Assembly (NCBI GenBank): GCA_963924565.1
Contig: OZ004609.1
Span: forward strand, 16,182,001 to 16,246,000
Length of the DNA: 64,000 bases
Direction of reading: 5' to 3'
From: Ascidiella aspersa
Lineage: Eukaryota
Below are positions 5,773-62,762 of this stretch, piece after piece; positions within the stretch are counted from its first letter, which is position 1; each line of letters opens with the position of its first letter. The translations under genes and the position numbers were made by a program. The notes beneath the pieces were generated by a model, which made no database searches, was not told where the DNA came from, and worked only from the letters and a program-made list of their open reading frames with translations.

Positions 5773-6352
5773 TTAAGTTGATAAATTTGTCGACAGCTTC
5801 GGGATTTCGTAACCGAAAAGGTCGTAGTCGGGCTTGTATAGTTGTATCAGCTGATTGGTTTTAGCAATCGAAATGTTTGAAAAGAGTTTCACCACAGTTG
5901 AGTGCTTTGTTGAACTGGCCCCTGACTTTTCATATCCGACAGGATATTTAACGTTGCTCGGAGCGTTGATCCTTTTAAGAATATACCTAAAACATTGGTA
6001 TGATAAAAAAGCATATTAAATTATAGCTTCCTTCACTCTCAAAAGTATGAATCTATGAACATGTGTGTGTTGGGTATAAAATAAATGTATGCAAGTATAC
6101 GCGCAAACGCTGGTGTTTTTATTTTTAAAATAGCTTTACCTTGCGTCCTCTTCAATTGTTTCCATATGAGCGATAACGTCATACTTGACATGACACGGGT
6201 AACAGAGAGTGGTAAAATTTTGCCAGTGTCGAACCTCCACCGACTGCGCGTTTTTTGATCCGTGATTAATGATGTCCTTCGTGACGTCAGAATTGGCGGG
6301 ATCCACAATGTAGGAAATATACTCGTCGAATGTGGCGTAGAGTTTGTAATTT
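5773..6352 (-). CDS. Sulfotransferase C-terminal exons 9-10 (6352-6140, 5986-5773)
   Basis: ATFDEYISYIV...HWQNFTTLCYPCHVKYDVIAHMETIEEDAR|YILKRINAP...LYKPDYDLFGYEIP; TAA at 5775-5773. Confidence 0.92.
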
Positions 6353-9300
6353 CTGTAAAAGGTTTTGTATATATTCGACAAACATTGACTGTTAATATTT
6401 AGAGCGATTGTACACACTAATACATTTCCTAATTTGTTTATATGTGTGACCAGTTTTTTTTTTACAGTTTGGTTTTGGTGACCGCTAAGTAGTTTTAAGA
6501 AACCGCAAGTGTTTCCTTTAAATACCAAAAGTTGCAAGTCCAAAATTTGGGAAACCGCTGGAGAAATTTAGGGGACCGTTTCGGTCCCCCAAAACACCTT
6601 AAAAAAACACTGTGTGTGACTAACAGTTTTTATCTTGGTTCATTGTTGCATCACAGGGCCACCAGGCTATACCGCCCCCCCCCCCCCCTAAACCATACTT
6701 TTAGAAAATAAAATTTGCAAACTTTTTCCGTTTCACTTAAATCTGTTTAGCCCAAATGCGATATGCATTCTATAGCATCTAGAGCTGTGTGACTCATAGG
6801 CTAATCTCTAGTGCAAAGTGAAAAAGTTTGCATTTATGTAGTTAAAATGAGAAAAAGTTTCTCGGTACCAAAGCAAATTGATACCGTGCGTGCTATGTGT
6901 ATAACGTCTTTGCAATATTGCTGTAGTATCAGTAACACCTCAGATGGTTTATTATGGCTATTTTTTATAACATTAATTGTGACGTCATCTATTAAAATTT
7001 CAATGTCCCCCCTGACATAAAAACGACATTTTCAAAAAAACATAAAACATAACATTTGCGGGCAGTTGTGTGTTCTATATGTCTTAGTTGTAAAGTAATC
7101 AACTATAGTTTACCGATAATATATTTAGATTAGGGCCTAACCTTTAGGCCAATGTTTTACACGTTTTTGTAAAACATTGTTTATTTCTTCAAACCCTTCA
7201 ACGACACGTTTAACGTATCCTCTGATTTTTTTCATTTCTAATAACCTCAGAATAAGCCAAATGGCACTGTAATTTGTGCAGCTCTATAATTGAAATGAGG
7301 GTGGGGATTTAAAAATCAGTTTAATTGAGTAGGTATTCCATTCTAAAAAGCTGCTGAAAAAACCAAGGACTCCTTTGTCAGTCTGAACTCCTCTTTAAAT
7401 AACATTTTGTTAACGTAAAACTACGATAAATTATATGCGTCAATTTAGCTGTCAACTCAGGCAGGATAGCACCCGACGTTTGACAAAGCAAACAATTATG
7501 TTAACACCGTTAACCTACCTGTAATGGTAGGCTGGTGCTGTGTATATTTCTGGTGGATCCGGCCGTTTTAGGATTGTGGATTCAGGTTCGATAGAGGTAT
7601 TTGCATTTTTCCCTGTACGTTTTGAAGACAAAAACAGAATAAACGTTTTGCCAGTTTGGACAAAAAAGTTTTTGTAATCAGCAATTTGCTGTAAAACGTC
7701 TCTTCACATGATCGAAGATAAAGAAATCCTAAACTTAACCTTTAGCAATTACACCTACCGCTGCAATAGTACCATATTTTAAGATATTTTGTCGTAGATG
7801 GACAAGGGTCGCTTTGAATCCATTTAGATGTAGCTTCGACAACGCACGATGTTTTCATATTGCACGCGACCAACACAGCCGATGATGCAGTTTCTGCACT
7901 GCATTGCAAATTGTAGATAGAACCGTTTTTTGAACATCTGCAGACACAAAATAGCTCCTAAAACATAAGATAAAGGGTTGTATTTATTTTTTTTTGATCT
8001 TCACCACGAGTATCTTTTTTAATTTGTAAAGAGGATTGAAACCATTTCAAGGTCATTACATTTTTTATATTGAAAATGGAAATATAGGACCTCGTCTGTC
8101 CACGAAACAAAGAATAAAGTTGTTTTCAGCACCTAGGGGACTGTTACTAAGAAGTTTATAGGTTAAAATAAAGTTAAAATTTACATTAAAGTTAAAATTT
8201 GTTAATAAAGTCAAAATTTGTCAAATTATGACTTTTGACAAAGTTTTTGTGTTTCTTGAGAGTAGTTTATATAAATATTGTCGTGGAAGCATTGTAAATC
8301 AGGAACTGCGACACAATTAAACCATATTAACCCGTAAAAGCAGGCAAAATGTCAAAATGCCCACTTGGATCTGCAGTAACTTTTATCGCAAATTATCCAT
8401 TTTTTTTATTGGTTGTTACAAAACGCTTCCTCTTCATAAAGATCAACAGTTTGAATTTTAGGAATAGCCTACTGACATTCTGTAATACAAAAATGCCTAA
8501 GCAAGCTTAATCTATCGCCAAAAAAAACGATGCACTTTTTAAAATCCATAATACACCTTGACTTTGCAACAAAATATCACGTTTGGGTCTGAAATCGACA
8601 AAATATTATGTTTGGGTAACTGGCATCAATTCAAGGAAGAACTGTGGCCTCTACAAACAAGCAATTTAGTTAGGTTAAAATAAAGTTAAAATTTGATAAA
8701 AATAAAGTTAAATTTTTTTTTTAGGTTAAAATAAAAATGGCCCTAGTTATTACCATTTCAGTCACGGTAAAAGAGTAGTTGGGAAGCAAACTGTTCAAAG
8801 ACCATTTAGTATTCCAATCTTAAAGTGTTTTCAATTGATATGTGTTATATGGGTTCTGTACATAAATTAAAAAGTCTCCAACTCATCTGGCCTGTAAATC
8901 ATTTGTTCTGGAATTTCACAACGGCCGCTAGGTTCATTTTAAGTTAATTCACCAGGACATGTAGCCATGGTTTCAGATTCTGGAAATTGTTATTAAAATG
9001 CGTAGAACAAGTCTTTCTATAAGAAGAAGCCGAGATTATGTTACTAAAATACTTAATATATCTCAGCATTTATGAGCCGTGGCCATCGCCCCCTGGTGGG
9101 ACATGGATCAGTATTCAGGTGGCCACCATCTTTTTTATTATAATATTTTTAAACATTTTAACACAAATTTGTCGTTTGCATTATGAGTTTACAGATCTTC
9201 TCTGTGATTTTATGTGAATTATTTTTCCAATTCGTGAGCAAGGGGGTAACATGGTGTTGCGAACACCAAAACAAAGTTTTACTTTTAACTTGTCGTGATA

Positions 9301-12300
9301 AGGGGCGCACTCTTTGTCACTTATTCCCTGAACAAAACAGAGATCAGATTATATCTTAAGCTGGGTGTGATTTTCTGACCGTATTGCGCAGCCACGCCAG
9401 ACTTAAGAAATCTCAGCTAATTAATCAACCTTCAGACCTCGACCCCGGAAGCCTAACTTTCAATTTTGTTGCAAATTTCCTTTTTGAAAACATGTACATT
9501 TACACTCAGTCTGTAGGTCTAATAATTGTAATGTTGGCTTTTGATTAAGCGTTTTTATGAATATTTCAGTTCGGAACTCACTCTAACTATACGAAGTATA
9601 CAAAAATATTGTTGGTGACTTAATTCAGTCTTTATTCCCATCAAAACTTATTTGGTGTCCCAGATGGTTATGGTGCTAAATTGTTTAGAAGTTTGTTAAA
9701 TTTGTTGCTTTTTAATCTTTGTATGACAATTATCGCAATTATGTTCATACTTAGTTTGAAAGTATTGATTTGAATTGAGCAAAATGAGTATAGTTATTAA
9801 TAATACCGGATTAATACTTTACAAACTCTATAAAAATAAATAACAAGACTAATAGAGGAGCTTTTATATTTCGACCTACTTTTTTAGGGTATATAATACT
9901 TACATTTGCCTGTTTGTTCTTCCATAAAAGCTAGATCCGATGTGAATCAATTCACCAGCAGGACAACGTAATTGCCGAATGGAGCGATCACAAATCGTTA
10001 CTTCCGTCATTTTTGATATATCTAAATTTATCGGTTTTATTAAAACGTCACTGGCTCATTGTAACATATGTACATCTGGGAAGAAGGTTTGGATTCACTA
10101 TTCACTTGTCCATTTATATATTTCAAAAACATATGTCAGTGGAAAATAGCCCTTTTAAAGTTAAACATATGCCTATCTAGATAAAACATATTGTGCGGTA
10201 AGTGCGAAACTTTTATTTCTTTGAAATATTCAAGGTCAACAGTATTACTGCAACATTTAAATTTAAATTAAACTTAATAAAAGTTGTGCTTGCTGCACAA
10301 AAAACACCAAAAAAAGAATATAATTAGACGCTATTTTACCTATAATAGTCGTTATTTCAGGGGTGGACAAACTTTCAGCTCGCGAGCCGGATTTCAAACT
10401 TAGTATAGTTTAATAAAGAGCAGCATAGAGTGCATTAACATGTGGCTTATTTTCCACGATAAAGTATGGTCTGTTACGAGGGATACAACACAGATAGCTT
10501 TTATAACAGGGTCACAAATGATGACGGGTATAAGGGGTTTTTAACTAACGAAGTCATCTGAAACCACTTTAACAACCAAACATTCTTCCGGTGTGTATAT
10601 TTAAAGCAGTCGCATTGTAAAAATACGGATGAAAAACAATCCTGTACTAGAAATATGGATAATATTTTTTACCTAAATGAGGCACAGACAATATGTCGGA
10701 GAGCGACTGTTAGATTATTTAGTACCGGCTTAGTGCACGAGTAAAATATACACATGTGGCTGCTTCAAAGCTTGTTTACAGTAAATATAGTCTATATGCG
10801 TACTTTTTCCAATGTTAGATTGATTTATAATAACGTGAATCGTATTTCATTTATTTTATTTTTGTTTTAAAGTTGTCTGATTCGTCACTTACTTTAACAC
10901 TTATAGGTGGTACAGGGTAAACTGAACTAAACAGACCTTTACACTCGTAGATAATCTGTAGGTAGTTGGGAGCAGTCCCGCAGCCTTTTAGTGGAAAGAG
11001 TGCAGGCGATGACACAACTTCACAATTCGTCTTTCCGTCGCACAACTGTGAGACGACAAACCACGACCGCGGAGATGAACATTTGCGAACCTTCATATCT
11101 GATGTTGCGTCGTCCATACAGCTTAAAAGTATTAAAATAAATTACTTTAACAAGGCGATTCAACGCACTATGTGTTCCTCGCCTACCTCAGGGTCAGGTT
11201 GCGAACGATTGTTGAACAAATTCGTAAAATGTTTATTTACTAACAAGGTAATGATTTGATTACTGATAAAAATTGGCTTTGGATTCCTAAAACACAAATT
11301 TTATGTACAATATTAGTCTCGTAGGCATAGCATTAGGAGTACATTGGAAGCACGATGCCCCTAAAGTCTTCCTGGCGCATATTGCAACACTTTGGCGTGG
11401 GGTTTCGTAAACAAACTCGTTTATCTATGGGAGGCCACAAATCAAAGAACACATCGGTCGGGTTGAAACGTAATCGCAGATACAAATAAAAAAGTAGCCA
11501 ATGTGCAACTGAATACGAGTCTAATTACAGTTTAGGAAAGGACCTTAAAACGTTGAAGCGAATTACAATAAAACGTTTATTGAGTTTAAGTTGGCAATTT
11601 TTTTTATTTTACAAGGGACGTGACGCAATGCACAACCCAAAAAATGCACATTTATCGATTGGAAAAAATATAGTTAGATTGACCCATCAGCAGTGAGACT
11701 ATACAGGAACCTATACGGAAAATAAAAAGTTATTTTTTTATCTTGTTATAGGTTTAAGTTTCGCCTAACGCGGCATTACCAAGGTGATAAATTAGCATGT
11801 GCCTAACCAGACTACCAGTGATACCTGGGTAATGAATGGGTGACATTTTTGCTTTGTATTTTTAATGTGTAATTAAATAAGTCCCTTAAAATTAAATAAA
11901 TACTTATACTTATATCCACTTACGTTAAGCCGTCCTGTCTTCCGAAAATCGCGCTGTGAATCTTTATTACGTGTTTTTCCTGTTGGCACTCAAGCATAGC
12001 AACTTCGTGATGACACGTCACTATTTCTCGCCACCCCCTTCCCAAATCTATGGGTAGAGTGCATAACAAGTCGTTTACATGATTCAAAATAATGTTAAAG
12101 CCCATACAGAAGTAGGTATCATTTTGAAAGTTTCGAATAACTCTTTATTCATATTCAACATCTAAATGAATAAAGAGTTGTTCGAAACGTTCAAAATGAT
12201 ACCTATACTTCTGTATGGGCTTTGATATTCTTATTACGTCTTACTACAACCTCCAACCATTATGCTCCAAAATAATGTTGTATTTAGCACTTCCGTTTAG

Positions 12301-14714
12301 ATTACAGGCAGTCTTTTATAATCAATGTGTAATTGTTATGTGCCCAATGTGTGTCCTAAATTAAATTTTACTTAATCCAAATAAAACGCAAAACGCGCAT
12401 TGCTGGACAAGGACTCAACATGTATTTTCATGTTGCCTTACTATTATATAATCGACAAATACCATTTGGCTTTTGTCAATATTCAAAGGGGGACGAAAGG
12501 CACAGAACATTTCCAAAAGGGGAGCACGCTAGAAAAAACGATTAGAACCACTGGTCTATATCTATAAGGTCTCGTTCGTGACCAACTCAATAAAAACACG
12601 TCATCGCTGGCAAAGTACTACCGAATAATAGCCAATTTATCTAGGCAAATGAGAAGTAACATAACGAAGTTAAACTGGTCCAGAAAACGATTTATTACGC
12701 ACCTATATCGTTGTAAACAACCCGGATACATTTAATGCTATGGTAATTGCACATTGGCGTGGTAATTCGACTGGCAAAAAATAGCCTCTATAAGTGACTT
12801 GCTTTGTGACGTCACGCTATGGCGAAATTTTGTAACGTCATATTTAAATGACCACAAAAAATGCCGGTGACTGCTCGGAAGCATCATGATTTTTAGCCTA
12901 AAACATGTTTAGCTTGTTGAAAAACCCCAGCGGTAGCTTAATTAGTTGCGTCGTGTTTTAACGGTAATTGCATCACACTTTTAACAAATATACAAATTCA
13001 ATCACGTTGAATCAGTATAATAAAACCATATAGGTTCAAACCTATACTACCTTGTGCTGGATTTTTCCATCGATTTCCATATTTACGAGCAACTTCATAA
13101 GAAAATTGTGAAAATACGGAAGTCCTTTTGTCCGGAGGTTTATAAACCTTGTCCAAATAGGCAGACGTCAATCTCTCAATTGGCTCACGAACAACCATCA
13201 TTTTCAAGGAGTCATTGTACGCTTGAAAAAGTGTCTTGTTCGGTGCAAACTGAATAAATTCTAACTTTGCGCCATGAGATTGGCCCTGTGTTTTAACATA
13301 GGTTTTTCAGTTATATAAAAATGAAAAAAAATGTAAAAAAAATTACGACTATAATTGTGTTCACACATTGGTTTGATAAAGAATTACAGTTTTAAAAAAC
13401 GTAATATTAGCGCCATTGTATATTTGTTTAACGAGGATCTATGAAATCTTTCTATAGTGTACTGGCACATTTACCTACTTTACGTGTCCTAACTTCGATA
13501 TCTCGGTCATTTGCAAATCAAAGTCCCGTTTTAGCTGGCCTAGTTCACATTTAATACAGTAAAACGTTATTGTTTGTTGTGCAAACAATACAACGCCTTT
13601 AGAATCCGAATATTGCCGGGTCAGTTCTCGAATTGTATACTGAGCGTCCATAGTTCACGCAAGTACTTGAATAATTTAAAAACAATATAAATATAAACAG
13701 TTGCTTGTGTATAGGCCTTTAAACACTTTAGCCTTTAACGTTATATGTTTTACCTGCTTAATGTGTTCAGTAGAGTTCGCCATTCCACCAAGAACCATTA
13801 AAACCTTTTTCCAATTACTACAACCAGACTTCGGTACTTCGCAGTAAATTAACTTGTGTTTTACCGAAGTAAAGTACCAAGGTGTGGGTTTGGGCAGGGT
13901 GTTAACCCAAGGTACGTAGGTAAGGTTTTTAAAATTGATTCCTGTAAGGTTCGAAAAATGTTTTAAAAAATTACTCATACCAACATATTTGCTAAAGCAC
14001 AATCACCCACATGTTTTGTAATGTAATTTACATCATATTTCTCGAATATTTCTAACTTCTTCAAAACATACGTTAAGTATACACGTCGATACATATATAC
14101 ATAATTTTATTACCCATTTTCCTGCACGTCTTTTCCAGATGCATTCTCCGTTGTCGCATTCTTTCGTCTATCCTTGCCATAAACTGATCGTCTGTCTCTT
14201 TGACAGTTAAATTGGTCGCCGCGCCAACAGACTTACTCTGACTTGTCATCCTTTGAGAACTAGCATCTAACGAAATGTTGCCATCATTCGTTTCACGGTT
14301 CGCTTGCACATATGCTGTGTTTATCCTGCTTGATTCACTGCCATCCGTCGGTTTATCTTTAGTTAACATGCGCAAGCTTTGTGTCGCAGTGTCAGTAAAA
14401 CTTTGCTGATCAGGTGTAGTTGCGGTAGGATTTCGGCGTGGTATTTGAGGTGAGGTGGCTGGTTGTGTATCCTTAATCAGTTGCCTTGCGGTTGAAGTTT
14501 CATTTAGATCACTTGCTTGAAAAAAACGAGTCCGTTCGGCTGTCGACTGTATCGTCCAAATCGTTTGTTGGTTATTAATCTTTATTCCAATTTGAATTAA
14601 GACTTTGGAAACGGTGGCATCAATAACAAATCGCACACAAACCGAAATTAACAGGCAAGCAACCAGTAACCAACCGATCCTTTTTCGAAAGTGTCTTTGA
14701 ATTTTTCGGGGCAT
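5773..14714 (-). CDS. Carbohydrate sulfotransferase (Sulfotransfer_2, CHST8-14/HNK-1ST family) with two internal SUEL lectin domains; 10 exons: 14714-14114, 13941-13754, 13285-13051, 12047-11924, 11121-10937, 10021-9904, 7937-7759, 7612-7519, 6352-6140, 5986-5773 (2151 nt, 716 aa)
   Basis: Basic N-tail + TM (RKRIGWLLVACLLISVCV), S/T-rich stem, 5'-PSB motif YCEVPKSGCSNWKK, 3'-PB motif VREPIERLTSAY, C-terminal HWQNFTTLCYPCHVKYDVIAHMETIEEDA and LYKPDYDLFGY. All nine introns GT-AG with compatible phases (1,0,1,2,1,2,1,2,2) and no internal stop. Confidence 0.9.
7519..7612 (-). CDS. Pro-rich linker exon joining lectin cassette back to sulfotransferase C-half
   Basis: cag|GKNANTSIEPESTILKRPDPPEIYTAPAYHYR|gtaggt; phase 1 in, phase 2 out, exactly what exon 6352 requires. 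Confidence 0.8.
7759..10021 (-). CDS. SUEL/Gal_lectin domain 2 (exons 10021-9904 and 7937-7759; both absent from the ORF track)
   Basis: TICDRSIRQLRCPAGELIHIGSSFYGRTNRQI|CSKNGSIYNLQCSAETASSAVLVACNMKTSCVVEATSKWIQSDPCPSTTKYLKIWYYCS; YGR and DPCxxTxKYL hallmark motifs, 8 Cys. Confidence 0.9.
10937..12047 (-). CDS. SUEL/Gal_lectin domain 1 (exons 12047-11924 and 11121-10937) inside the sulfotransferase
   Basis: VTCHHEVAMLECQQEKHVIKIHSAIFGRQDGLT|CMDD...KCSSPRSWFVVSQLCDGKTNCEVVSSPALFPLKGCGTAPNYLQIIYECK; 8 Cys in SUEL spacing. Confidence 0.88.
12091..12229. repeat. Near-perfect hairpin/palindrome (~60-bp arms, 13-nt loop), probable MITE
   Basis: aaagcccatacagaagtaggtatcattttgaa...ctctttattcat / atgaataaagagttg...ttcaaaatgatacctatacttctgtatgggcttt. 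Confidence 0.85.
13051..13941 (-). CDS. Sulfotransferase exons 2-3 (13941-13754, 13285-13051): PAPS-binding 5'-PSB and 3'-PB motifs
   Basis: KHKLIYCEVPKSGCSNWKKVL and MMVVREPIERLTSAYLDK; canonical splice sites. Confidence 0.93.
14114..14714 (-). CDS. Sulfotransferase exon 1: cytoplasmic tail, signal-anchor TM, Ser/Thr-rich stem
   Basis: ORF 14073..14714; ends ...LEKTCRKMG|gtaata (phase 1). Confidence 0.88.
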
Positions 14715-17612: not shown

Positions 17613-20600
17613 TCAGACCCATGTTTCTGGTAATTTGCTCTGGTCGCATTTCCACGAAGTTTCACGACTTTTGCTATGGGAAGTAGAATTTGTGCCAAAA
17701 TTCATCGGACTGTTTTTCGGAAGATAGCCGGACGATGTCCATCGAGAACTGCTACTGCGTATTGCAGCGACAGTGAGGTTCATGTCGTCCTTGCTATATC
17801 GCCTCCCATTACGATGATTGTAAGGCATTTTAATCCCATTGCCTGGCGAATTTTGGGCTGTGTCAGTGATGTTGTTTATAGTTTTATCGAATACGTTCGT
17901 GTGAGTAGCGCTTTTTAAAGCTTCTGGCAAATCAATGCATTTTAACGAAGGATGTAGATTGTTCCTACTATCATGCAGCGTAACGTTTCCATCTTCTTGT
18001 TCTTGCTGTGTTTTAGTTTTTCGGTTAGCATTGTTTTTATCCTGAACCCTGCGAGTAGATCTTGGTAATTCCTTAATTTGCAGTCTGAAACGATGGTCTG
18101 AATTTGGGCTGATTTCAAAAGATCCATTAGAAGGGCTAAAATCGGTGTGACCAACTAGAGATAACGAATGTCCAGATTCCTCCGTACGGAAGCTAACGTC
18201 TCCATGTTTGTGGTTTGGCTTTGTGTGCAAATAAATTTGGTTTAAATTCTTAAGTTGGTGTTTCGATGACCCCTTTGTGCATTCGTTTAAGTGAGATCCT
18301 AGATTGGATTGCGGTTCGATGTTTGTTATAAGAGATGATTCACTTTGGTTCACGGATGGATCACCGTCACATAATTGAACGACTTTGCTCGAAGTGCGAG
18401 TGTGAAAATGCTGCAATGTTGCAAGGTGTCTTTTTTCATTTATGCTGCCACTGTTAGTATTGTTGCTATTGTTCGTGTTGCTACTTGGTTCAAATCTTAA
18501 TTTGGAAACAAAGCGGCGTGGTTTAGGTTTGTGATCATCTGTTATCGAACTAGTCTTACCATAGTCAACTTTGTGCGGACGAAGTTGTGCGCGATTATCA
18601 TTGTGCGATTGCTCACTTTCCTCACTTGTGATGAATGAGTCAGACGAATTAAAAGTTTCACCACTATTCGATTCTGTTTGTCTGACGCTGAACCCCCCTC
18701 GGCGTTTGACAGCGTGTATCGAATCGCTTTCGGTCATTTGCGATGAAAAAGTGAAAGTGTCCATGGAGATTCCAGAGTCAGACAACTGGGCGATGTAAGA
18801 ATCTTCTGTCATGCCCTCACTTATATTGCCATGTAGTTGGTCCTTAGAATTACTGTCAATAAATGGAGCTGATGAAGTAGGCGTTGCTTCTCGCTGTTTT
18901 GGTAGAGTTCGTTCGTACTCGCTTGGTTGTAGAATGTCCTGGAGATCGTCCTCTGTAAACGACATCGACCTATTGTCCATTGCCTGTTTGCTTATTGCAA
19001 TCGACGAATTTGTCGGAGAAGCACGCTGAGCGTCTCGTAAAGTCTTTATGACTGTTTGAATCTGCAAATATTTGAAAATAAAAATATGCTTTTGTAAAAG
19101 GTAAGTACAAACTTATATACGGCATTGTTAAATTGACTAAAAAGCGAAAGCTATTAATAAATGCAATATATGCCCCCCAATTTTTTGTAAAGTGTATGTT
19201 TATAAATATTGAGACCGTTTGATGAAAAAAGGTAAAAACAGGTAATATTTGTTAAAATAAACAGAAATAAATATTTCGCGTATAAAAGCATCGTTTTTGT
19301 CAGGGTTTAAATCACCGTCCGAAGCGGCAATGTTTTTAATGTAATAGGGTCAATTGTCTTCTAATGCGAAATCAAAATCAAACGCAAAACGCCGTTTTTC
19401 GTTTCTTGTTTGGTCGACTTTTGCTGGACGTTAATTGGATATTTCTGATTATTTTTTATTATTAATTGTGACGTCATTACAATCGCTATTTTATGACGTC
19501 ATATCCGTCAATATTTTATGACGTGATTAACGTCAGATGAAAAAACGGGAAATTCCTTAAGTTAAAAATTCGGTACCTCACTTTTTGGATTTCTGGGTAC
19601 GTCCCTGATCCTGTTCGAACATATATACTCAATTAAAGGGGATTAACAGCTCGTATTCAGCTGCTGAGACGTTTATATACACCATGCGTATTCTGTGTAC
19701 AAGCTTTAACTTGATTGTTTTCGCTGTTTAATCAAACGTTTTCCGAGTCACTTGATGAAAGCCAATGACAACAAAAAATACTCGTCTAGGGCAGGTGGAT
19801 AGTGCGCATCTGGTTCTAACTTTGGTAATCACGAAACCATGATGCATAGATTAACGCCTCAAAAAAACCTTCAGGTAGCGTTTACCAACAAAAATTTTCA
19901 CATGGTAACTTCGGAATACCTCGAAACCAAGGGGTGTGTTAAGAATAAAGTTCACATTTTTACCAAACCAAACCCCAATTTTTCTAGACGTGGGAATTCC
20001 TATCGTGCGACATTAAGCAGTGAACAACGACCGAGCGGCGCTCTTGCGCCACTATGCGGACGAAATCCTGCTGTATTAAATCGTAAATAACCACTAAGAC
20101 AAATCGCTTTATTAAATCAACACCCGATAAATGAGTAATGCAATTTGTTTTGTGGTTTGTGCACTTTTATATAGTCATTCTGACCATTTCATGTTATATC
20201 TTAAGTAACACTTTCATAATTCCAAAACTTTTTTATACACCTCTGTACGTTTTATTTCGCTTGTCGCGAATTTTGATGTGGTTGACGAGCAGTTATCTAC
20301 CTCTAAGGTCAATTGCTCGTACAATTTAAACGTTTAAATAATCATCCATAAAAGAAATAAATTGTGCAAATTTAACGTTTATTGAATGTAAGTTATGCCA
20401 ATTTAAACCGAATAAAAGTTCATACGCGCTTGTGTGAGTCATTTGGCGCAATGCCCTTAAATACTTCGCGACTTGATTTCAGTTTCACATTTGTGCACGC
20501 GCCACAAGAGGTCTAAAAGGTTGGTTCACGCCATAACGTTATAGCGTATTTTTACATAATCATGTCGTAAAAGGGGAACTTGTATTTGCATTCCTGTAAA

Positions 20601-23600
20601 CGTTGAACATACGGCACCTCTTTTAAATAATAACTTAATCCTAGTGTCTGGCCTTTTGTTTCAACAAACAGATAGAGATTCAGAGGCGTAGAAATACAAA
20701 TAAAATACCACACATATATTATAGATAAACAATAAGATTAAAATTCGTAGCTACCTTTTTGAGTTCCGCAACCGATGGTTGAGTTTCGACCAATTTCGGT
20801 TCTTCTTCTATACTGCTACTGCTGCTATTTCTGCTGTTGTTGTCATTACTGTGCTTCGTCATATCAGAGCGGCTTAAACTAGATGGATTTGATTGCTTGA
20901 AGGTGGGTCTGCTTGAAGTAAGTTAGCACAATCGTAAGGTTCAAAGTTTAAAGAAAATAACAGCACAATAAATCGTAGGTTTTAAAGTTTAAAATTTTGT
21001 ACAAAGCTCGTTGCGTAATCGTTAGATCTGCTTTATGATTAGAAAAGCGTCTGTGTGAATACAATTTATCGTAAAGCTCAGGAGAATTGCGTCATCAACC
21101 AAATACATGGCATTTTAATATATGCCTATTATAATATATCATTGACCAAATACGGAATTTTCCTGGTTTACCATCAATTATGATTTATCTCGGTTGGAAA
21201 GCGACGCAAAAATGATTTTTTGATAGAAACATAAAAAAATTGAGTCAAGCAACTCGTTGATAAACAACTACGAAAATAAAATTATTGTTTTAAATATTTT
21301 GAATATTGTTTATGTTGCGTGGCAGTGGTGATAAATTATTTAAAAGATCTGTAATCTAACCGTTTAAACTTTAGTTTGCCGCTTTTTGCTTGTTGTTCTT
21401 TATCAATCAATACAGATACGTGGCCTGTAGCTTGCTGGTAGCTAAGTCGCATCCCGGATTGTGGTTTTGAAGGCAACAATTCTATTTTTTTCTCTTTAAC
21501 TTCGCTGTTTTGACAGCTGCAGTCGATCGTAACCTCCCGTGGAGCGGCCCCAGGGGAGTCATTTGGGTTGTTGCAGTTGTTATTGTTGTTGGGGTGATTA
21601 TTGTTCGTCGAAAGGCTGGATTGCATAGTCAGCATTTTGGATTTTTCCCTGAGGTAAAAATAACAACGTCAGGAGTTTCAGTAAAATGAAACAAAAAAAT
21701 CAGACTGGAAAAACTTAAATGCCTTTTTTGTGTATTTTACATATTAACACACTTTTTTTCTAAAATATAAAAATATTTAGATGGACCACTCGACCTTGTT
21801 TAAAATATTTTACCCAACTTTTAAACTGCCATTCTTTACAGAGCTTCTATTTACCATCGGTAAAGATCAAGCGATTTAAAAACGTATTCACCTCATGTAA
21901 TTCGCCGCCTTTCTTCGCAACAGGAAATCCACTGCTTCGGGGTCATTTTCGTTTAACGTCCGGAGCATTTGGTCGTGATCATATTTGACGATCTGACAAC
22001 AATAGCCTATATAAAACACTTCCGGGAAAACAATTGCGAAATATTTCTAGGCGCCTAATTAGAGATGTGTGTGTAAGAGGTGGATTCGATCATAATATAA
22101 ATGCGATCTTGGGCAGTATTGTGTGACTTATAGCGACTTCATAAGATCATTCCTTTTTAAAATGTTGTCACCTATCACGATACGTTACAGCTCTTAACTA
22201 AAAATAACGAAAAAGACATGTAATAATGAATAACCAACAATATTATCCAAACGCAACTGTACTATATGATCAATAAAACGTTATGTGAAGTCACTTTACA
22301 ATTACCAATATGTAATTATAAATCAGGCTCCTATGTGTACACGGAAGTTTGTTCATTATAAATTAGCATTTTCGTATCTAATTGACTTACCTGAAACAGT
22401 TGTGTATAGTTTGTGATGATTTCTTCCACAACTGTTATAACGGCGCCACTGTCTTCTGCTTTCTCCATGCTTTGTATCTGATGAAATAACGATGTGCATA
22501 AATTAAAGGGTTTTTTATTGTGCGCCGTAATTTGCTAAACGAGCTTCCGATGAAATACAATTGCTAAAATTTGAATGTTTGAGAAACGGTTCTAACAATG
22601 CAAAACCGCAAAAAAACATTAGATTTGTTTGCATGATCACTACAATGAATATCTCTTCTACCAACAACGTTATGATAAAAACTTTTTGTAGGATGAATAT
22701 GTACGAACCTGATATGGATTATCGTTGCTAGTCTGAGTTTTCTTGTAACGATGCAATATGTTGGGGCCGAAAATAGTTGCCAGATTTGAAGCTCCCATCT
22801 TATTTCCGGTAACCTGAAAACATTCATGTAAGTAGTTTTTATACACGTTTGTAAAAAAGTGCTCCATATACACAAACAACATTGTTTTAAGAAAATGATG
22901 ACGCATAGCAATAGTTGACGCAAAAAAATTAAAAACTAAAACTAAAGGTCGAAGGTATTTTGAGTATTGTGAACGAGCCATTTTGAAATACCCCAAGTCC
23001 CTGTCACGGCATTTGTAAAATAAAAATCCGAATAAAGTAATTTGCGAAATTGGCAAGTGGAGTCACAGTCAAAGTCATTTTTATTACAAGTCAACCTTGT
23101 GCGCTATTTTGATAGCAACCAACAAAAATAACTTAATGCTTTTACTAGAAGAAATTGAAATACAAAAATAACCAAGTTTTATTGTTTATTATTTTAAGAC
23201 ATTCTGTCTGTTAATTGGTTTGCCTAAATCCAAGTAGAGTAATTCTTACAAAAAGAATGTAGTAAAGTCACGTCAGTTTCAAGAGATTTAAAAAGAGTGA
23301 CTTCAGCACACTTGTTTAGGTAATCAGAATGCTTTGATTTAAATTCAAGTAGGCCAATAATGATAGAGATGTCAGCCATTAAATACCAGGATTGAAATTA
23401 CTGCTGTAGGAAATCTTCAAATTGCATGCATTCATGTGGTTCATATAGACGTATGTAATTTCATAATACCGTTACTTGTAAATCAAAGTTTAGTCATATG
23501 TCATAAACCTTAATATATTTTTTTAATACATTTTTTAATATTACCTTGTTTCTAAAAGTGTCAATACTATCCTCTGAATGAGCGGCAACAACAGAAAGAA

Positions 23601-26600
23601 AGTTCAGCAAGGTGAATAATGTGTCTCGGTTGGTGAGAGGTAGGAGCCATACAAGACTACGTAACACCTGTAAGCGGTCACCTTTGGCCAGTTCTAAACA
23701 AATTATTTAAGAGTTCAGGTTTCGCATACGTATATAGAATATCGTGCCTAGCGCATTTTTACGAATGCTTAGTGCCCCAAAAGTTGGTTTGCTAAATATC
23801 TTTTAATTCATAAAGCACAATATTGACGAAAAAGAACAAGGTGCTACTTTGTACAAAAGCCCTTATCTCGCATACTTGCAGTTTGAATGAACGCGTGGTA
23901 AAGATCGCGCGTCAGCAGAGCTTCGGGGAGGTCCCGAAAGAATTCTTTCAGCAGCGCGGCCACGTCATGTGGATTGTAATCCTCATCGATTGTAACGTCC
24001 ACCCCGCGATCGAATTCTTCGCGAAGCTAAGATAAAAGCAAAAATCATATTAATATAATCTACTTCCTATAGTGCTGTGGCGCTGTTGTTTTAGCACCAC
24101 AATTATATCGGTCGAGTGAGAGCACTTTAAGCAGCACATCGAAGGATGACTAATATTATAGGCGCGGCAAGATTCAATGGTTTGCCAATTCCGCCCGATT
24201 GATTCCGAGACTGTGATCAATTGTCCATGCTGTTTTGAGCAACCACAACTTACATGTCACTTTATAAAACACGCTGGTGCTTTCAAATCTCCTGCTATGG
24301 CGGCACCGAAGCGGCATAATGACAGTAATCTTGAATTTTAATACCTACATATGTCAACAAAAACCTTTTATCCATAAAATATTGTTGCGTAACCACGCCC
24401 AAATCTATGCATCCGCGGTTTTAAAAAAGGTTTCGACTAACACTATGTCTTGAAATACGCTTTCGTACCTGCTTTACTCGTTTCTTCGATCCAGCCACGC
24501 GGAATATTCCTGTTGTGTTCAGACCTGAGAAAAAGTAATAGACAAATAGAGTTTTCGAAAAAAAAAATCTAAGTACATTGGTCATTGATTTCCAGCTGGG
24601 TGACGAGGCACCCCGTGGTGCCGTTTTAACGCTAAAGGGGCCGTGTTTCGAAGTCTTGTGGGTTCCCATTTTGTTCTATTAATCAGCTTCTTGTTACAAT
24701 TTTTTGTGTGCGATTGGGGTGCAACAAATCAAGAATGTTTTTCTACCCGTTGTACAGTTAGTGTGTACTGTTCGGTCAGATTATTGTGACATCACAGGTA
24801 ACCACTACGACTTAAGTCAATATCTTAACTTAAGTGCACTTAAGTCACTGTTTCAAATGACTTGACTTGACTTAAGTCATTTGGGCAAATGACTTATGTT
24901 AAAATTAAGCGTTTTCATTAGGATTTGTTTTTTTAAATTGAGCTATTTACTAAAATTTTTGCACATAAACAATTTGCTTGCCTAATGTTGCATTTTGCCT
25001 AATTTTTTGTTCAGCCATTGCTCATAATTGTACTAGCTCAAAACATTTTAATAGTTTAACGTTTTATTTTTATGACAAGGACATGACTTGAAATTGATGT
25101 GCTCTAATTATGACTTGACTGGGACTTGGACTTAAGTTTTTTTTTAAATGACTTGTTTACAACACTGGGAATCATTGACATAGGGCCATGAATAACAAGG
25201 TGGGATCTGTCGATATACAACTTCTTACCGTATTTAGTAATGTGATCGCAGCACTTCTGTACCACATATGGCACCTGCGCCATAGTTGGTGGCAGAAGAG
25301 AGCGCTTCTTCTCACTTCGCTGATTATGAGTTTTCCCCGACACCGAAAGTGACAGGGCTTCAAGTAGTTGCGATTGATAGGGATCGATTTCGTTGAGTGA
25401 GTCGGCGGCAATGGCACCCTGTAAAACACGTTTGTTTAACCTATTGGTGCAATAATAATAAGGCCGCCTTTCTATGATATTACCCTCAAAATGATTATGT
25501 GATGCGTGAAAGATGGCCTCCTTTGATGTAGTGTAACATTTTTCGCACAACCTAAAATGGCAGAACTGGATTTCTAGGCGAATACTGCAATCCACATTTC
25601 ACATAGTCTAACACCAACTATAAGGTAAATCTGAACCTCTGTTCTAATCCTATGGCATTAGTTTCTATTTCAAAGAAGTGATCTAGTGTTTGCGCGACGT
25701 TATTATTTATTTCCGATTTGTTTTTAAATTGTTTTAGGCATAGTTGAAATTTATAATAATTGTTCACGCTTTTTTACTAAGCATCGGTTTTTCATCTGGA
25801 CTCCATAGTAATTATTCTGTTTTTGTATTTTGTAATGAGAATTTTACGTAAAGCCCTTCTTTTGTTTTTCTTTCGCGCCAATTTTTAAGCAGAACTGGTG
25901 ACGCCTTTTTGGCGTTAACGCCTTACGAAAAATCTGTTATTGTCACACTTTCTATATTGGAAAGCTGCTTTACTCTTATTACTAGGTAATGTAACAGATA
26001 AATACCCTATAGCGTTATCAGTGTGTATAAATCACTAGTGTGTATTGAGGTCGTGTATGTCAGCCTGCCTGCCTGCATTCCTATTGCGAATAGGCCATTT
26101 TCCATAATAAAAACAAGTTCTAGGGCACACTTAAGAATCTTTAGAGTCACACAGATTGAGGATCATGTAGTAATAATCATTATGTTTTACATAAGGAACA
26201 CCAAACTGCGGTTACTGTCATAATACACATAAATTACACTTGAAATGTTGTGATATGCAATTTCTCACTTAATTTCGATGTAGTTTTAAAGTTTGTGTTA
26301 AATATTTAATTATATTTTTCCTTCAAATGATAACAAGTTAGATTTTTACGTACGGTTATCCGCCCCGAAATGGAAAAAGTTTGGCGATTTCTGTTTTATA
26401 CAAATACACATGAGATAACTTTAGACGAAATACCAAAATAAGGCTAAGTCAATGCATTACACAATCATTTTTACACTTTGCTGACAGAATCAGTTTAAAA
26501 TCGAAAGATATTTAAAAAAAACAAACAATGTTGAATGCCGGATTCATGGTATTGAAAATTAAAAGAAACAGCATACGAGGGTTGAACAACAAACTGGTCG

Positions 26601-33600: not shown

Positions 33601-33980
33601 ATACTGTATAATATATACAACTTCTTCCAACAACAAAAAGACAGCACCATACATCTCCTTAAAGGCTGTTCCATCACCAAACAAATATTAAGACAAAGAA
33701 GTCAAATTAAATTCCAAATTCGCAACACACGTTTCTATCCAATTATTGCGTATTACTTTGCAGTCGAAACTCGGCACATTTCGAAAAAAAGGACTGATTA
33801 CATTTGCAGTGTAATGTCTCTGACCCTGCTTCAACCTTTTACCTTTTTTGTTCTTACGTTTATTCCTTTATAAAAAAAATAATTTTCTAATCAAACTGAA
33901 AAACATTAAATGCTCGCTTTAAATAAAAACAAGCTTTTTCGCTTGGATGCCCCTTACTATAAGAGCATAGTCAAACTTAC

Positions 33981-35282
33981 CACAAAACCACATTGCCTCT
34001 TTTTCCCGGCAGCGCCGTTGACTTCCCTGTGACAGATTTTACGACTTTCAAACTTTGACCGCACTGCCTTAATCCAAGGGCTGGGGCTGCGCAGTGTTTT
34101 GTTGTTGCGCTTCTGTTCACTTCCTGATTGAACCTTTCGAGCGTGGGTCGGAGACCTGAAAGCGCATTCCTTTTTCGGCAGGGAACGCATTGCTCGTACT
34201 CTGTGTCTTCTGATGCTCGATTGGCGAGGACCATTAAAGCGCAAAGCTGGGTGCTTTTCATTAACGTTCAGTGATTTTTGTTCAACACTCGACTGGTTCC
34301 CAAAACCAATCGTCGTAGACAAGATATCTCTAGCCGTTTTTCTTTCTGCACCATTCAAATAATTTTTCTTTATGTGTCTCTCTTTGGAGAGTTCGACTAC
34401 ATCAATGCAGTTTGGAAAACCGTAGGTGTCTGCACAATTACGAGCACTGTCTTTACTCCTACGCCTCGAAAATCGAGCAGAAGCGTTCGCTGTTTTATCG
34501 TTAACAGCGGTAGTAAATTGTTGAGGGCCCGTAGAACGACCTCTTCTTCTTTGACTATTATAGAAAGAAGTGGAGCTACCTGTACGTTGCCGCACTGAAC
34601 GCCCTCTCGATCTTCTACGAATGCTGTTAGATGGATATCTTACCTGAAAGTTGTTACTGGAAGTTCGACTTCTAAACGATCTTTGATCAACATCACAAAA
34701 ATCCTCAATTTTACCAGTACTTTTTGTAGTTTGGTCCGAGCTCAAGAATTCTTTTTCAGGTTTTTGAATTAGGTCACCCAGTTCTGTATTGCAATATGAG
34801 TTGTCTTGGAATTCTGGTGGAGGCTCCAAGGTACAGTCGATCAGGTCGCTAGGAAGTTTAGAGATCGCCGATATTGGGGCAGGAAGAGATTTGCTGTAGC
34901 TGCTCGTACAGTTTTTTATTGATACACCTGGCCTGGACACATCATTGATGTTGGGATGGCATTGGTCGCTTGGCTTTTTTAAAGTTTTTGCCCCAAATAC
35001 AGATAACATTCGCTTGAACGGGGACCGCAGCTTTTTTGCGACGCTTGTATCTTGCATCACTGTGTTGCTAAAGTTGCGCGGCAAGGATAGTGTAGTAGAC
35101 GTCCTGCATGGGTCCGTTAAATCAGAGTAAGGGTTTCCCGAACAAAAAGATTCACTGCGACCTGCGCTAGCTCTGTCAGCGGCAAACACACGACCGGCTT
35201 CGATCAAATGTGTGTTGTTGCGAAACCAGAAACGTACGCTTCTCCTTTTAGGTTGATCTTTCTGTGACTTTTTTTCTGCCAT
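33981..35282 (-). CDS. ARHGAP6: ARHGAP6-like alternative first coding exon B (434 codons, Arg/Ser-rich, likely disordered)
   Basis: 441-aa ORF; strong donor GTG|gtaagt at 33981 is phase 0, matching acceptor of exon 30242 (predicted 1575-aa isoform). Confidence 0.75.
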
Positions 35283-36709
35283 TGGTCATCCAAAATTTAA
35301 ATCTAATCAAAAAGATCGCAAATAACAAAAACAAAAAGCAGCCATCGCTGAACGGCAACGTAGTCAGTTAAGTTTGTATTTGGCCATCGTGTAAAAACCA
35401 CGCAAGTAATTAGTGCACAGTCCCTGTTACAACATAATGTATGGGCCGTAAACTTTTTAACGCCTGAAGCGTCTTTACATTAAAGTACCAGTTATTGCTG
35501 GTGTATTTGTCAACATAAATCAGTTCAAAGCAAAAACAGCTGCAAAATATAATTCGCCCAAAGAATGTCAATTGATTCACAAGAAACCACTGCAAGCCCA
35601 ACGATAGGAATGCACACTGGACCTGCCGATCGCACGAACAGCGAGTATTCTAAAACGGAAGCAATTGTTGCGCATTCTCCTTGCAGTACCGCAAATTACT
35701 TATCCCTTCCTACAGTAAAGTTCAGGTCGCACGTTTGACGGAGTCCGTCACTTAACATAGCAATTGCAACGAAGACAGTTGCAAGGGGACCTAAAATCGA
35801 CTAAATAGTAAAACCTGCTTGATCATTTTGTGTTGATACCTATTTAGCTCTAACGTGTCGCACTCAACAATCAAAACTGTTTTATGAATACATATTAATA
35901 TAAAACTAAATCTTCTTGCAAAACTGTCCATGCCGGCAATACTTACAAAATAATACAAAACAACATAAAAACATGAAAATACAAGTCATGTTATCAGTAA
36001 AACTTCGCTGCACAAATAACAATCGCGTCTTTATTACAGTAGGAAGCAACAACGTTAATAATAACGAGCCCTTTGTTTGTACAGAGAAGTTTCTAAACCC
36101 CTTTAAAAGTATTAAACTTTAAACTTACTTCTGGTCCCCATATTCGGTCGGCCATATCTTCAGTGTCAGTGATTGGAGACGTAGCCGCTTTACCAACTTG
36201 CTTGAGAGACCGACGAATTCTACAGTTTAATTGCATTTTGGTTAATAGGCTATATGATAGGTCTAAAGCAAATTTACCATATAAACACGGGCCTATCCTC
36301 TTTCTTATTTTAAATGAAATGATTTATATTTTTATGTTTGTAATATCTACAATGCATATTAAACATCGGTCTACTGTCTAAAACTGTAACTGGACTCCTC
36401 ACATTTAACAAAAGATCATTTAAGGTTGGTTTAATTCATTTACATTCTACAAAGAAAATATTCTTAAATGGCAGATGTTTTGGACGAGTTATCAAATAGC
36501 GATGCAAACCTAATAAGAAAACACTGCACACAAACTTTGTTATATTAGTACGGCTCCATGGAAAGTACAACACTTGCTTGCTGGGAATGAGTACTACAGA
36601 GTTTTCAGTAAACTTAGCTAAATCATTACACAAGAAACGTCTGTTAATCTTTACCTTTTTCTGCATCTTTGTTGCTGTTTTACATTCAAGTCATGACTAG
36701 TATATGCAA

Positions 36710-62100: not shown

Positions 62101-62762
62101 GGCATAAGGGTGATATCGAACAGTTTGGTCGGCACCCAAATGAGTTTTAACAGTAGAGCTAACGGATATGAGCGGACTGTCGCCATTGGGCCTGTTGTCG
62201 CCAAGGTTGCTCTGGTCTGTGTCAACGGCTCCACTTTGTATGCTAATCGCACCTTCTTCACGGATCGACGATTTCGAGCTTTGTGCCGATGGTGTTTTGG
62301 CAGCTAACTGATAATTGTTGTCTGCCACTGCCGAAAACGTCTTTAATTCACTCGCTTTAATGTCAATGCGAGACTTGCCTCTGTTAATGACAGCCACCGA
62401 GACTTCCTCTGCACGACCTGTGAATTTAAGTAAAATACATGTTAAATTTGTCATCCGAAAAGGTATCGAATTAAAGTTAGTACATAAACAAAATCAAAAA
62501 ATGTAACAACTTAATCACTATGCCCAATGCCAAATCAAAATCTGTACGATTGAAAGAAGAAACCAATCGCGACACATTGTAAAAGGTGTGCCAAACAGAA
62601 CTTACCACATAAGTACATTCATTGTAAAATTCGATGATCTAATTCTAATGCATCAGATAAAACTATGCGAACGCAACAAAACTCACCTTGATCAAGACCA
62701 ACACGATTCTCGAGCAAGGTACGCGAGTGCTTTTTGGTCTTGATACGCATGTCACACTGAAC
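59186..62762 (-). CDS. ZNF385: ZNF385-like matrin/U1-type C2H2 zinc-finger RNA-binding protein, 3' part; exons 62762-62687, 62417-61738, 61546-61300, 60989-60832, 59906-59847, 59773-59657, 59557-59186; 5' exons not identified
   Basis: LHCTTCEVYVNSDNQMKQHLSSLRHK and YRCNICKVTLNSDIQLSQ|HLASQRHRNILEGKPPKPRWTPY, matching the ZNF385 terminal finger + KPxKPxYxPY signature; Ala/Pro-rich tail; all junctions in phase. Confidence 0.82.

What the first reader, a model, noticed from the sequence alone, without database searches (positions are those of the whole stretch)
7759..12047. Lectin cassette is built from symmetric phase 1-1 modules: exon-shuffling signature and potential 0/1/2-lectin isoforms
Each SUEL domain is two exons with an internal phase-2 intron at the same position (just before the third Cys) and is flanked by phase-1 introns. 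Hence skipping domain 1, domain 2 or both (13051->7612) keeps the frame; skipping both restores a near-conventional CHST. Phase 1-1 modules are the classic signature of extracellular-domain shuffling; the shared intron position implies tandem duplication or capture of a two-domain rhamnose-binding lectin. Inference: splicing could switch substrate targeting.
Basis: partly seen in the sequence, partly recalled or inferred. Interest (0 to 1): 0.72.

Follow-up and report, generated by a model that had tools for sequence, protein, structure and literature searches.

The report
Sea-squirt sulfotransferase with inserted lectin domains
A sea-squirt sugar-sulfating enzyme carries two lectin-fold domains inside its catalytic domain, an old and conserved fusion whose exon layout would allow skipping them, but nothing found shows that skipping happens, and the domains lack a residue needed for ordinary sugar binding.

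Summary
A 10-exon minus-strand gene encodes a 716-aa type II carbohydrate sulfotransferase (PF03567). Two SUEL domains (exons 4+5, 309 nt; exons 6+7, 297 nt) interrupt its catalytic domain. Each has phase-1 flanks and a phase-2 intron just before Cys3. The fusion is old: Ciona intestinalis and Clavelina lepadiformis have the same two-domain protein, and a C. savignyi fragment has the same junction. Six genomic fragments suggest the same phase-1 donor, so a class 1-1 exon-shuffling origin is plausible. The isoform switch is unsupported. Frame compatibility follows automatically from 1-1 modules, and no 0- or 1-domain form turned up in limited searches. Double skipping leaves a 76-aa segment where ordinary CHSTs have 41-44, because exon 8 is part of the insert. 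A 303-nt chimeric skip was missed. Five of six SUEL domains lack the Glu needed for rhamnose/galactose binding, yet half of SUEL2 is as conserved as the catalytic exons. Best reading: a constitutive, non-canonical recognition module. Transcripts and activity are untested.

The parts
14114..14714 (-). Exon 1: short cytosolic tail, single transmembrane anchor (about residues 13-31), Ser/Thr-rich stem; followed by a phase-1 intron
   Evidence: hydropathy; N-terminus and last 30 aa align with orthologues
13754..13941 (-). Exon 2: catalytic domain start with the 5'-PSB-type motif (YCExPK); followed by a phase-0 intron
   Evidence: PF03567 E 2e-9, profile positions 3-42; motif
13051..13285 (-). Exon 3: 3'-PB-type motif (RxPxxRLxSAY) and following helix; ends at the phase-1 donor where the insert starts
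   Evidence: PF03567 profile positions 74-117; same donor column inferred in 6 of 6 genomic fragments
11924..12047 (-). Exon 4: SUEL1 N-half (Cys1, Cys2; His instead of Glu at Cys1+1; FGR instead of YGR); phases 1-2
   Evidence: PF02140 profile positions 1-21
10937..11121 (-). Exon 5: SUEL1 C-half (Cys3-Cys8; DPC motif and Lys lost); phases 2-1
   Evidence: PF02140 E 6.5e-9; PDB alignments
9904..10021 (-). Exon 6: SUEL2 N-half (Asp at Cys1+1; YGR kept); phases 1-2
   Evidence: PF02140 profile positions 1-21
7759..7937 (-). Exon 7: SUEL2 C-half (DPC and KYL kept, Gly after Cys7 replaced by Ser); 33/60 and 32/60 identical to the orthologues; phases 2-1
   Evidence: PF02140 E 1.6e-11
7519..7612 (-). 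Exon 8: Pro-rich linker that also belongs to the insert (absent from ordinary CHSTs; longer in orthologues); phases 1-2
   Evidence: no Pfam match; loop lengths; alignments
6140..6352 (-). Exon 9: catalytic domain resumes (TFxEF-type helix, HW..LCxPC motif)
   Evidence: PF03567 profile positions 143-186; 44/71 and 41/71 identical to the orthologues
5773..5986 (-). Exon 10: catalytic domain end and stop codon
   Evidence: PF03567 profile positions 188-252

Best explanation
This is an ascidian gene for a Golgi type II, PAPS-dependent carbohydrate sulfotransferase of the HNK-1ST / CHST8-14 kind. Before Ciona and Clavelina diverged, a class 1-1 SUEL module was shuffled into a phase-1 intron that splits a connecting segment of the catalytic domain, between the helix after the 3'-PB motif and the TFxEF helix. 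The module was present, or became present, as a tandem pair, and a Pro-rich linker (exon 8) grew behind it. The pair is a fixed, constitutively included part of the enzyme. It most likely no longer binds rhamnose or galactose in the canonical way. Instead the better conserved SUEL2 serves as a non-canonical recognition module that binds a protein or a sulfated glycan and so selects the acceptor or partner of the enzyme. Shown here: gene structure, phases, domain content, conservation, residue losses. Inferred: the shuffling route (about 0.75), constitutive inclusion as the main form (about 0.8), enzyme activity (about 0.85), and the recognition role (about 0.5).
For: One open 716-aa frame with 9 of 9 GT-AG introns. 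PF03567 is split at profile positions 117/143 around two PF02140 domains. The same architecture occurs in C. intestinalis XP_002125445.1 (661 aa) and Clavelina lepadiformis LOC143470401 (728 aa), and the same junction in the C. savignyi fragment H2Z449. All 16 Cys and the 12-residue spacing between the domains are kept in 3 of 3 full proteins. SUEL1 and SUEL2 separate on a six-row tree with support 96/95. 6 of 6 unspliced fragments have G, S, C or R (the residues an xGT codon can give) at the donor column, about 1e-4 by residue frequency. Residues of exon 3 plus exon 9 give 44 aa, the ordinary loop length of 41-44. The catalytic motifs are intact. The Glu at Cys1+1 is absent in 5 of 6 full domains and in the C. 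savignyi fragment, and E42D, E42Q and K120R abolish or strongly reduce sugar binding (PMC2430599). Exon 7 is 53-55% identical to the orthologues, against 38-62% for the catalytic exons and 34-39% for SUEL1. Precedents for SUEL domains with other ligands: latrophilin RBL binds teneurin (PMC13197933; structures), and the EVA-1 orthologue C21orf63 binds heparin (PMC3269628).
Against: No transcript reads were available, so constitutive inclusion rests on gene models and on sparse searches: 2 hits of 221 candidates, and 7 hits of 8000 scored, which missed most ordinary CHSTs. The members of the two orthologue clusters (3 and 2 sequences) were not seen. The DNA of the six fragments was not seen and they are not independent. 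Whether they carry SUEL domains downstream is unknown. Clavelina SUEL1 keeps Glu, Gly and Lys, so one domain may still bind sugar. The AlphaFold model of the Ciona protein is poor (pLDDT 52.6), so the geometry between SUEL and the active site is unknown. No ligand is identified.
Confidence: 0.6

Rival explanations
1. Regulated alternative splicing makes 0-, 1- and 2-SUEL isoforms (and a 303-nt chimeric skip) that switch substrate targeting.
For: 4 of the 15 skip combinations of exons 4-7 are in frame. The acceptor before exon 6 is pyrimidine-poor (0.35) and the exon 3 and exon 5 donors are non-consensus. A 145-nt hairpin (z -11.5) ends 40 nt upstream of the exon 4 acceptor.
Against: Frame compatibility is automatic for 1-1 modules. 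All 5 single-exon skips shift the frame. Constitutive introns of the same gene have similarly weak sites (intron 2 acceptor 0.41, intron 1 donor 5/9). No strong long-range inverted repeat brackets a domain; the best arms between introns are about 70-83% complementary and AT-rich. Both full-length orthologues have two domains, and their database names carry no 'isoform X' suffix (the naming convention is recalled). Double skipping still leaves about 32 extra residues.
Confidence: 0.12
2. The SUEL domains are working galactose/rhamnose lectins that hold the enzyme on galactose-rich acceptors, as the ricin domain does in polypeptide GalNAc-transferases (analogy recalled).
For: SUEL2 keeps YGR and the Lys in 3 of 3 species and the Asp of the DPC motif in 2 of 3. 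Clavelina SUEL1 keeps Glu, Gly and Lys. The fold matches SUL-I, CSL3 and latrophilin RBL.
Against: SUEL2 has Asp, Gln, Gln at the Glu position, exactly the substitutions that remove binding in latrophilin-1. Window SUEL1 lacks Glu, Tyr and Lys. The residue at Cys1+1 of SUEL1 differs in 4 of 4 species (H, S, E, P).
Confidence: 0.13
3. The insert has only a structural, oligomerisation or Golgi-retention role, or is a tolerated passenger, and does not affect acceptor choice.
For: The canonical pocket is lost, and SUEL1 evolves fast (34-38% identity, long branches). The linker after SUEL2 varies from 38 to 84 aa.
Against: The SUEL2 C-half is conserved at the level of the catalytic exons, including lineage-specific residues outside the fold core. 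This fits a conserved interface but does not say with what.
Confidence: 0.13
4. Artefact: a separate lectin gene nested in a CHST intron has been spliced in on paper.
For: The orthologues are predicted models, not sequenced proteins.
Against: Models from three other species join the same parts at the same place. The SUEL exons begin at an acceptor with no signal peptide of their own. Joining exon 3 to exon 9 directly shifts the frame.
Confidence: 0.02

Closest known systems
Ciona intestinalis XP_002125445.1 (LOC100186940), Clavelina lepadiformis LOC143470401, Ciona savignyi H2Z449 (fragment)
   Same: Same architecture and insertion site; 46-55% identity in the catalytic parts; 16 Cys conserved. 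These are probable orthologues, already in databases with both Pfam labels.
   Different: The two full-length ones are annotated only as 'uncharacterized'. The linker after SUEL2 is 62 and 84 aa against 38 aa here, and stems differ in length.
HNK-1ST family sulfotransferases CHST8/9/10/11 (Pfam PF03567 Sulfotransfer_2)
   Same: Type II anchor, stem, 5'-PSB, 3'-PB and HW..LCxPC motifs; 30-33% identity to fish CHST8, fish CHST11-like and a beetle CHST; nearest Atlas clusters are CHST9/10-like.
   Different: The catalytic domain is interrupted by about 235 aa (SAY-to-TFxEF distance 278 against 41-44). No subfamily orthology could be assigned.
Tandem SUEL/RBL proteins: fish CSL3/CSL2, sea-urchin SUL-I, EVA-1/EVA1C; latrophilin RBL
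   Same: 8-Cys SUEL fold, tandem arrangement.
   Different: Here the domains sit inside a Golgi enzyme, and the sugar-binding Glu is replaced as in EVA-1. Each domain is two exons, against three in snakehead RBL and one in rhamnospondin (PMC3269628).
Enzymes with an appended glycan-binding module: plant beta-galactosidases with a C-terminal SUEL domain (5IAZ); GALNT ricin domain and WSCD1/2 sulfotransferases (both recalled, not tested)
   Same: A catalytic domain joined to a lectin-fold accessory domain.
   Different: In those cases, as recalled, the module is terminal or lies beside the catalytic domain. Here it is inserted inside it.

Membership tests
HNK-1ST / CHST8-14 family (PF03567) | Single N-terminal transmembrane anchor and stem (type II) | tested here: met
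   one hydrophobic stretch, peak 2.55 at residues 13-31
HNK-1ST / CHST8-14 family (PF03567) | Sulfotransfer_2 profile match above cut-off | tested here: met
   4 of 4 catalytic exons exceed the 22-bit cut-off; orthologues 158 and 153 bits
HNK-1ST / CHST8-14 family (PF03567) | 5'-PSB Lys, 3'-PB Arg/Ser and HW..LCxPC motifs (motif names recalled) | tested here: met
   compared with 3 ordinary CHSTs
HNK-1ST / CHST8-14 family (PF03567) | PAPS-dependent sulfate transfer to a glycan | not testable with these tools
   needs an enzyme assay
A particular subfamily (CHST8/9 versus CHST11-14) | Orthology by phylogeny | tested here: inconclusive
   32.5, 29.8 and 32.8% identity to three references; the 5'-PSB motif is nearer CHST8; too few sequences for a tree
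SUEL/RBL domain (PF02140), fold | Eight Cys and SUEL fold | tested here: met
   8 Cys in 6 of 6 domains; Foldseek best E 3.4e-14 to SUL-I with the Ciona model
Canonical rhamnose/galactose-binding lectin | Glu at Cys1+1 (E42 of latrophilin-1, E7 of CSL3) | tested here: not met
   His and Asp in the window; absent in 5 of 6 full domains; requirement from PMC2430599
Canonical rhamnose/galactose-binding lectin | YGR motif and DPCxGTYKYL motif with Gly and Lys | tested here: inconclusive
   SUEL2 keeps YGR, DPC and Lys but has Ser for Gly; SUEL1 has FGR and lacks DPC and Lys
Canonical rhamnose/galactose-binding lectin | Measured sugar binding | not testable with these tools
   needs a glycan array or ITC
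Class 1-1 shuffled module | Phase-1 introns at both domain boundaries | tested here: met
Class 1-1 shuffled module | Same intron pattern in donor genes, and a phase-1 intron at this site in SUEL-less paralogues | not testable with these tools
   no animal genome collection; the six fragments show only the donor, and their downstream content is unknown
Alternatively spliced cassette | Skipping keeps the frame | tested here: met
Alternatively spliced cassette | Skipped transcripts or proteins exist | tested here: inconclusive
   none among the hits, but these searches are insensitive and no RNA data were available

The most novel reading that the evidence does not exclude
An ascidian Golgi sulfotransferase uses lectin-fold modules grafted inside its catalytic domain to read a non-canonical ligand (a sulfated glycan or a core protein), and regulated two-exon skipping, including a 303-nt skip that builds a chimeric domain, switches which acceptors get sulfated.
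Probability: 0.08. Interest if true: 0.72.

Novelty: new variant of a known kind. Interest (0 to 1): 0.42.

Why it matters
How Golgi sulfotransferases choose among acceptors carrying similar glycans is largely open. Ascidians have expanded CHST repertoires and unusual sulfated glycans (PMC13731937 passages). An enzyme with a conserved, removable lectin-fold pair inside its catalytic domain gives a direct handle in a CRISPR-tractable model (Ciona LOC100186940): delete the module and see whether acceptor choice changes. It is also a clear case of exon shuffling into, not beside, an enzyme domain. The parts and the shuffling mechanism are well known, and the architecture is already visible in database annotation, which limits the surprise.

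Tried and rejected
Homologue search with exon 3 alone: 0 of 10 candidates passed. Four of the 11 hits (P0009-P0012, 1480-2779 aa) were dropped as spurious because Pfam showed unrelated domains. Alignments that mixed exon pieces with full proteins were misaligned and not used for inference. No solved CHST8-14-type structure was found by sequence. A model of a CHST11-like hit (pLDDT 72.8) matched sulfotransferases only at Z 5-7.7 (HS2ST 3F5F: Z 6.6, rmsd 4.2, 172 aligned) and gave no residue mapping, so the idea that the insert sits in the HS2ST acceptor loop (residues 180-191) was not adopted. Complex prediction of the SUEL pair against the two catalytic halves gave no answer (score 0.00, alignment not used) and counts neither way. 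Long-range inverted repeats that could loop out a domain: nothing convincing. Further SUEL or CHST exons in the window: none among 2905 six-frame segments beyond the known exons. A missing linker exon or retention of intron 7: rejected (146 nt, stop in frame). An Atlas search with the SUEL pair alone and a listing of cluster members gave no result, so these questions stay open. Searches for a prior description (mostly listings only) showed none. Tetsukawa 2010 was not held and Rizzo-Valente and Pavao 2025 was not read; either may mention this protein.
Full report
What is there. The finding lies in a minus-strand gene of 10 exons (14714 to 5773). With 9 of 9 GT-AG introns it reads as one open frame of 716 aa, with intron phases 1,0,1,2,1,2,1,2,2. 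Exon 1 gives a short tail, one transmembrane stretch and a stem. Exons 2, 3, 9 and 10 match Sulfotransfer_2 (PF03567) at profile positions 3-42, 74-117, 143-186 and 188-252. Exons 4-7 match SUEL_Lectin (PF02140) twice, and exon 8 matches nothing. The lectin-fold pair therefore sits inside the catalytic domain. By homology the window is from an ascidian; the species was not determined.

Check of the observation. Exons 4+5 are 309 nt and exons 6+7 are 297 nt. Each pair is flanked by phase-1 introns and split by a phase-2 intron in the codon before Cys3. No nearby alternative splice site changes these phases while keeping the frame open. The two domains are homologous (25 of 104 identical; score 84, shuffled mean -12.9, maximum 24 of 500). 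Of the 31 ways to skip exons 4-8, 7 stay in frame. All 5 single-exon skips shift the frame.

Relatives. A search of cluster representatives with exon 3 gave 11 hits; 4 were dropped as unrelated. One of the other 7 (P0006, later named C. savignyi H2Z449) runs from the catalytic N-part straight into the start of a SUEL domain. With it as query, 2 of 221 candidates passed: C. intestinalis XP_002125445.1 (661 aa) and Clavelina lepadiformis LOC143470401 (728 aa), both labelled PF02140 + PF03567 and 'uncharacterized'. They align with all ten window exons and have two SUEL domains at the same site. A profile search over proteins of 107-1274 aa gave 7 hits among 8000 scored candidates: these three and 4 ordinary CHSTs from fish and a beetle. 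No 0- or 1-domain form appeared. That search missed most CHSTs, so the absence is weak evidence. The other 6 hits look like single genomic exons read into the intron. At the column where the window's exon 3 ends, 6 of 6 have G, S, C or R, the only residues an xGT codon can give; by residue frequency this has a chance of about 1e-4. That suggests a conserved phase-1 donor, but their DNA and downstream exons were not seen and they are related to each other.

Origin. Phase-1 flanks are the accepted mark of shuffled extracellular modules (PMC8001218, passages). SUEL2 domains are 48-49% identical between species, SUEL1 domains 34-38%, and SUEL1 against SUEL2 26-37%. The two groups separate on a six-row tree without outgroup (96/95). 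So the pair was in place before Ciona and Clavelina split. The shared internal intron fits both duplication in place and capture of a tandem lectin, and might simply be ancestral to SUEL genes. Snakehead RBL has three exons per domain and rhamnospondin one (PMC3269628, passages), but positions were not given, so this stays open.

Does skipping restore an ordinary enzyme? Only roughly. From the SAY motif to the TFxEF helix, 3 of 3 ordinary CHSTs measured have 41-44 residues, the window protein 278, and the double-skip form 76. The residues of exon 3 plus exon 9 alone give 44. The insert relative to ordinary CHSTs is therefore exons 4-8, bounded by phases 1 and 2, and cannot be removed in frame. 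The linker behind SUEL2 is 38, 62 and 84 aa in the three species. In a model of a CHST11-like hit the site maps to the segment between two helices; that it is a surface loop is inferred.

Is there a splicing switch? The frame allows it, but that follows from any 1-1 module. Splice sites of exons 4-7 are not clearly weaker than those of the other exons, and no strong inverted repeat brackets a domain. A 145-nt hairpin ends 40 nt upstream of the exon 4 acceptor (z -11.5, 0 of 200 shuffles as stable); it looks like a small transposon remnant (inference) and could affect that acceptor. The orthologue names carry no isoform suffix, which by the recalled RefSeq convention means a single annotated form. 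No RNA data were available. I put regulated switching at about 0.12.

Are the domains lectins? They have the fold: 8 Cys in 6 of 6 domains, and matches to SUL-I, CSL3, latrophilin RBL and EVA1C by sequence and structure. The canonical pocket uses Glu7, Tyr27, Gly83 and Lys86 in CSL3 (PMC3269628), and in latrophilin-1 even E42D, E42Q and K120R abolish or strongly reduce rhamnose and galactose binding (PMC2430599, passages). At the Glu position the window has His and Asp, Ciona Ser and Gln, Clavelina Glu and Gln, and the C. savignyi fragment Pro. Window SUEL1 also lacks the Tyr and Lys. Against this reading, Clavelina SUEL1 keeps Glu, Gly and Lys. Yet the SUEL2 C-half is 33/60 and 32/60 identical to the orthologues, in the range of the catalytic exons, so it is under selection for something. 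SUEL domains that bind proteins (latrophilin-teneurin; PMC13197933, passages) or heparin (C21orf63) are precedents.

Mechanism. Most likely a constitutive two-SUEL enzyme. The catalytic halves, with intact PAPS-binding motifs, close around the insert; the Atlas model of the Ciona protein aligns to an ordinary CHST across residues 37-653 (TM 0.62 by the CHST). SUEL2 then binds a protein or sulfated glycan that selects the acceptor or partner. The anatomy is shown; activity, ligand and geometry are inferred. My own model of the Ciona protein was poor (pLDDT 52.6).

Novelty. Both parts and the shuffling mechanism are known, and the architecture is already implicit in database labels. Six literature searches showed no paper on it; 0 papers hold the three accession terms. 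Most results were seen as listings only. Passages of PMC13731937, PMC12403961 and PMC5612238 did not mention it. Two papers on ascidian sulfotransferases (Tetsukawa 2010; Rizzo-Valente and Pavao 2025) could not be or were not read, and no supplements were read. Verdict: a new variant of a known kind; a real, conserved insertion of lectin-fold domains into a sulfotransferase domain, with the isoform switch unproven and unlikely. Interest 0.42.

Noticed in passing
window 12088-12232: A near-perfect 145-nt palindrome (arms 89-95% complementary; RNA fold -96 kcal/mol, z -11.5) in intron 3, ending 40 nt upstream of the exon 4 acceptor. Single copy in the window; MITE-like by inference.
   Followed up: partly
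window 17613-41789 (-): A large multi-exon RhoGAP gene upstream on the same strand (PF00620 at 23494-24026), with long Ser-rich open frames at 17613-19112, 33957-35285 and 40107-41789 that may be its terminal or alternative first exons.
   Followed up: no
window 59186-62493 (-): Exons of a gene with a matrin/U1-type C2H2 zinc finger (zf-met, zf-C2H2_jaz at 60772-61038); ZNF385-like by recall.
   Followed up: no
P0013 residues about 465-475 (Ciona orthologue): The linker after SUEL2 holds a run of four Arg, a possible furin-type site (inference). It is absent from the window protein, whose linker is shorter.
   Followed up: no
window 8147-8219 and 8664-8737: Short AT-rich 18-nt tandem-like repeats occur twice in intron 6.
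   Followed up: no
P0002-P0005, P0007, P0008 (protein search hits): Six diverged exon-3 fragments share a subfamily motif after the 3'-PB helix with the fusion proteins. They may mark further orthologues or SUEL-less paralogues; their downstream exons are unknown.
   Followed up: partly
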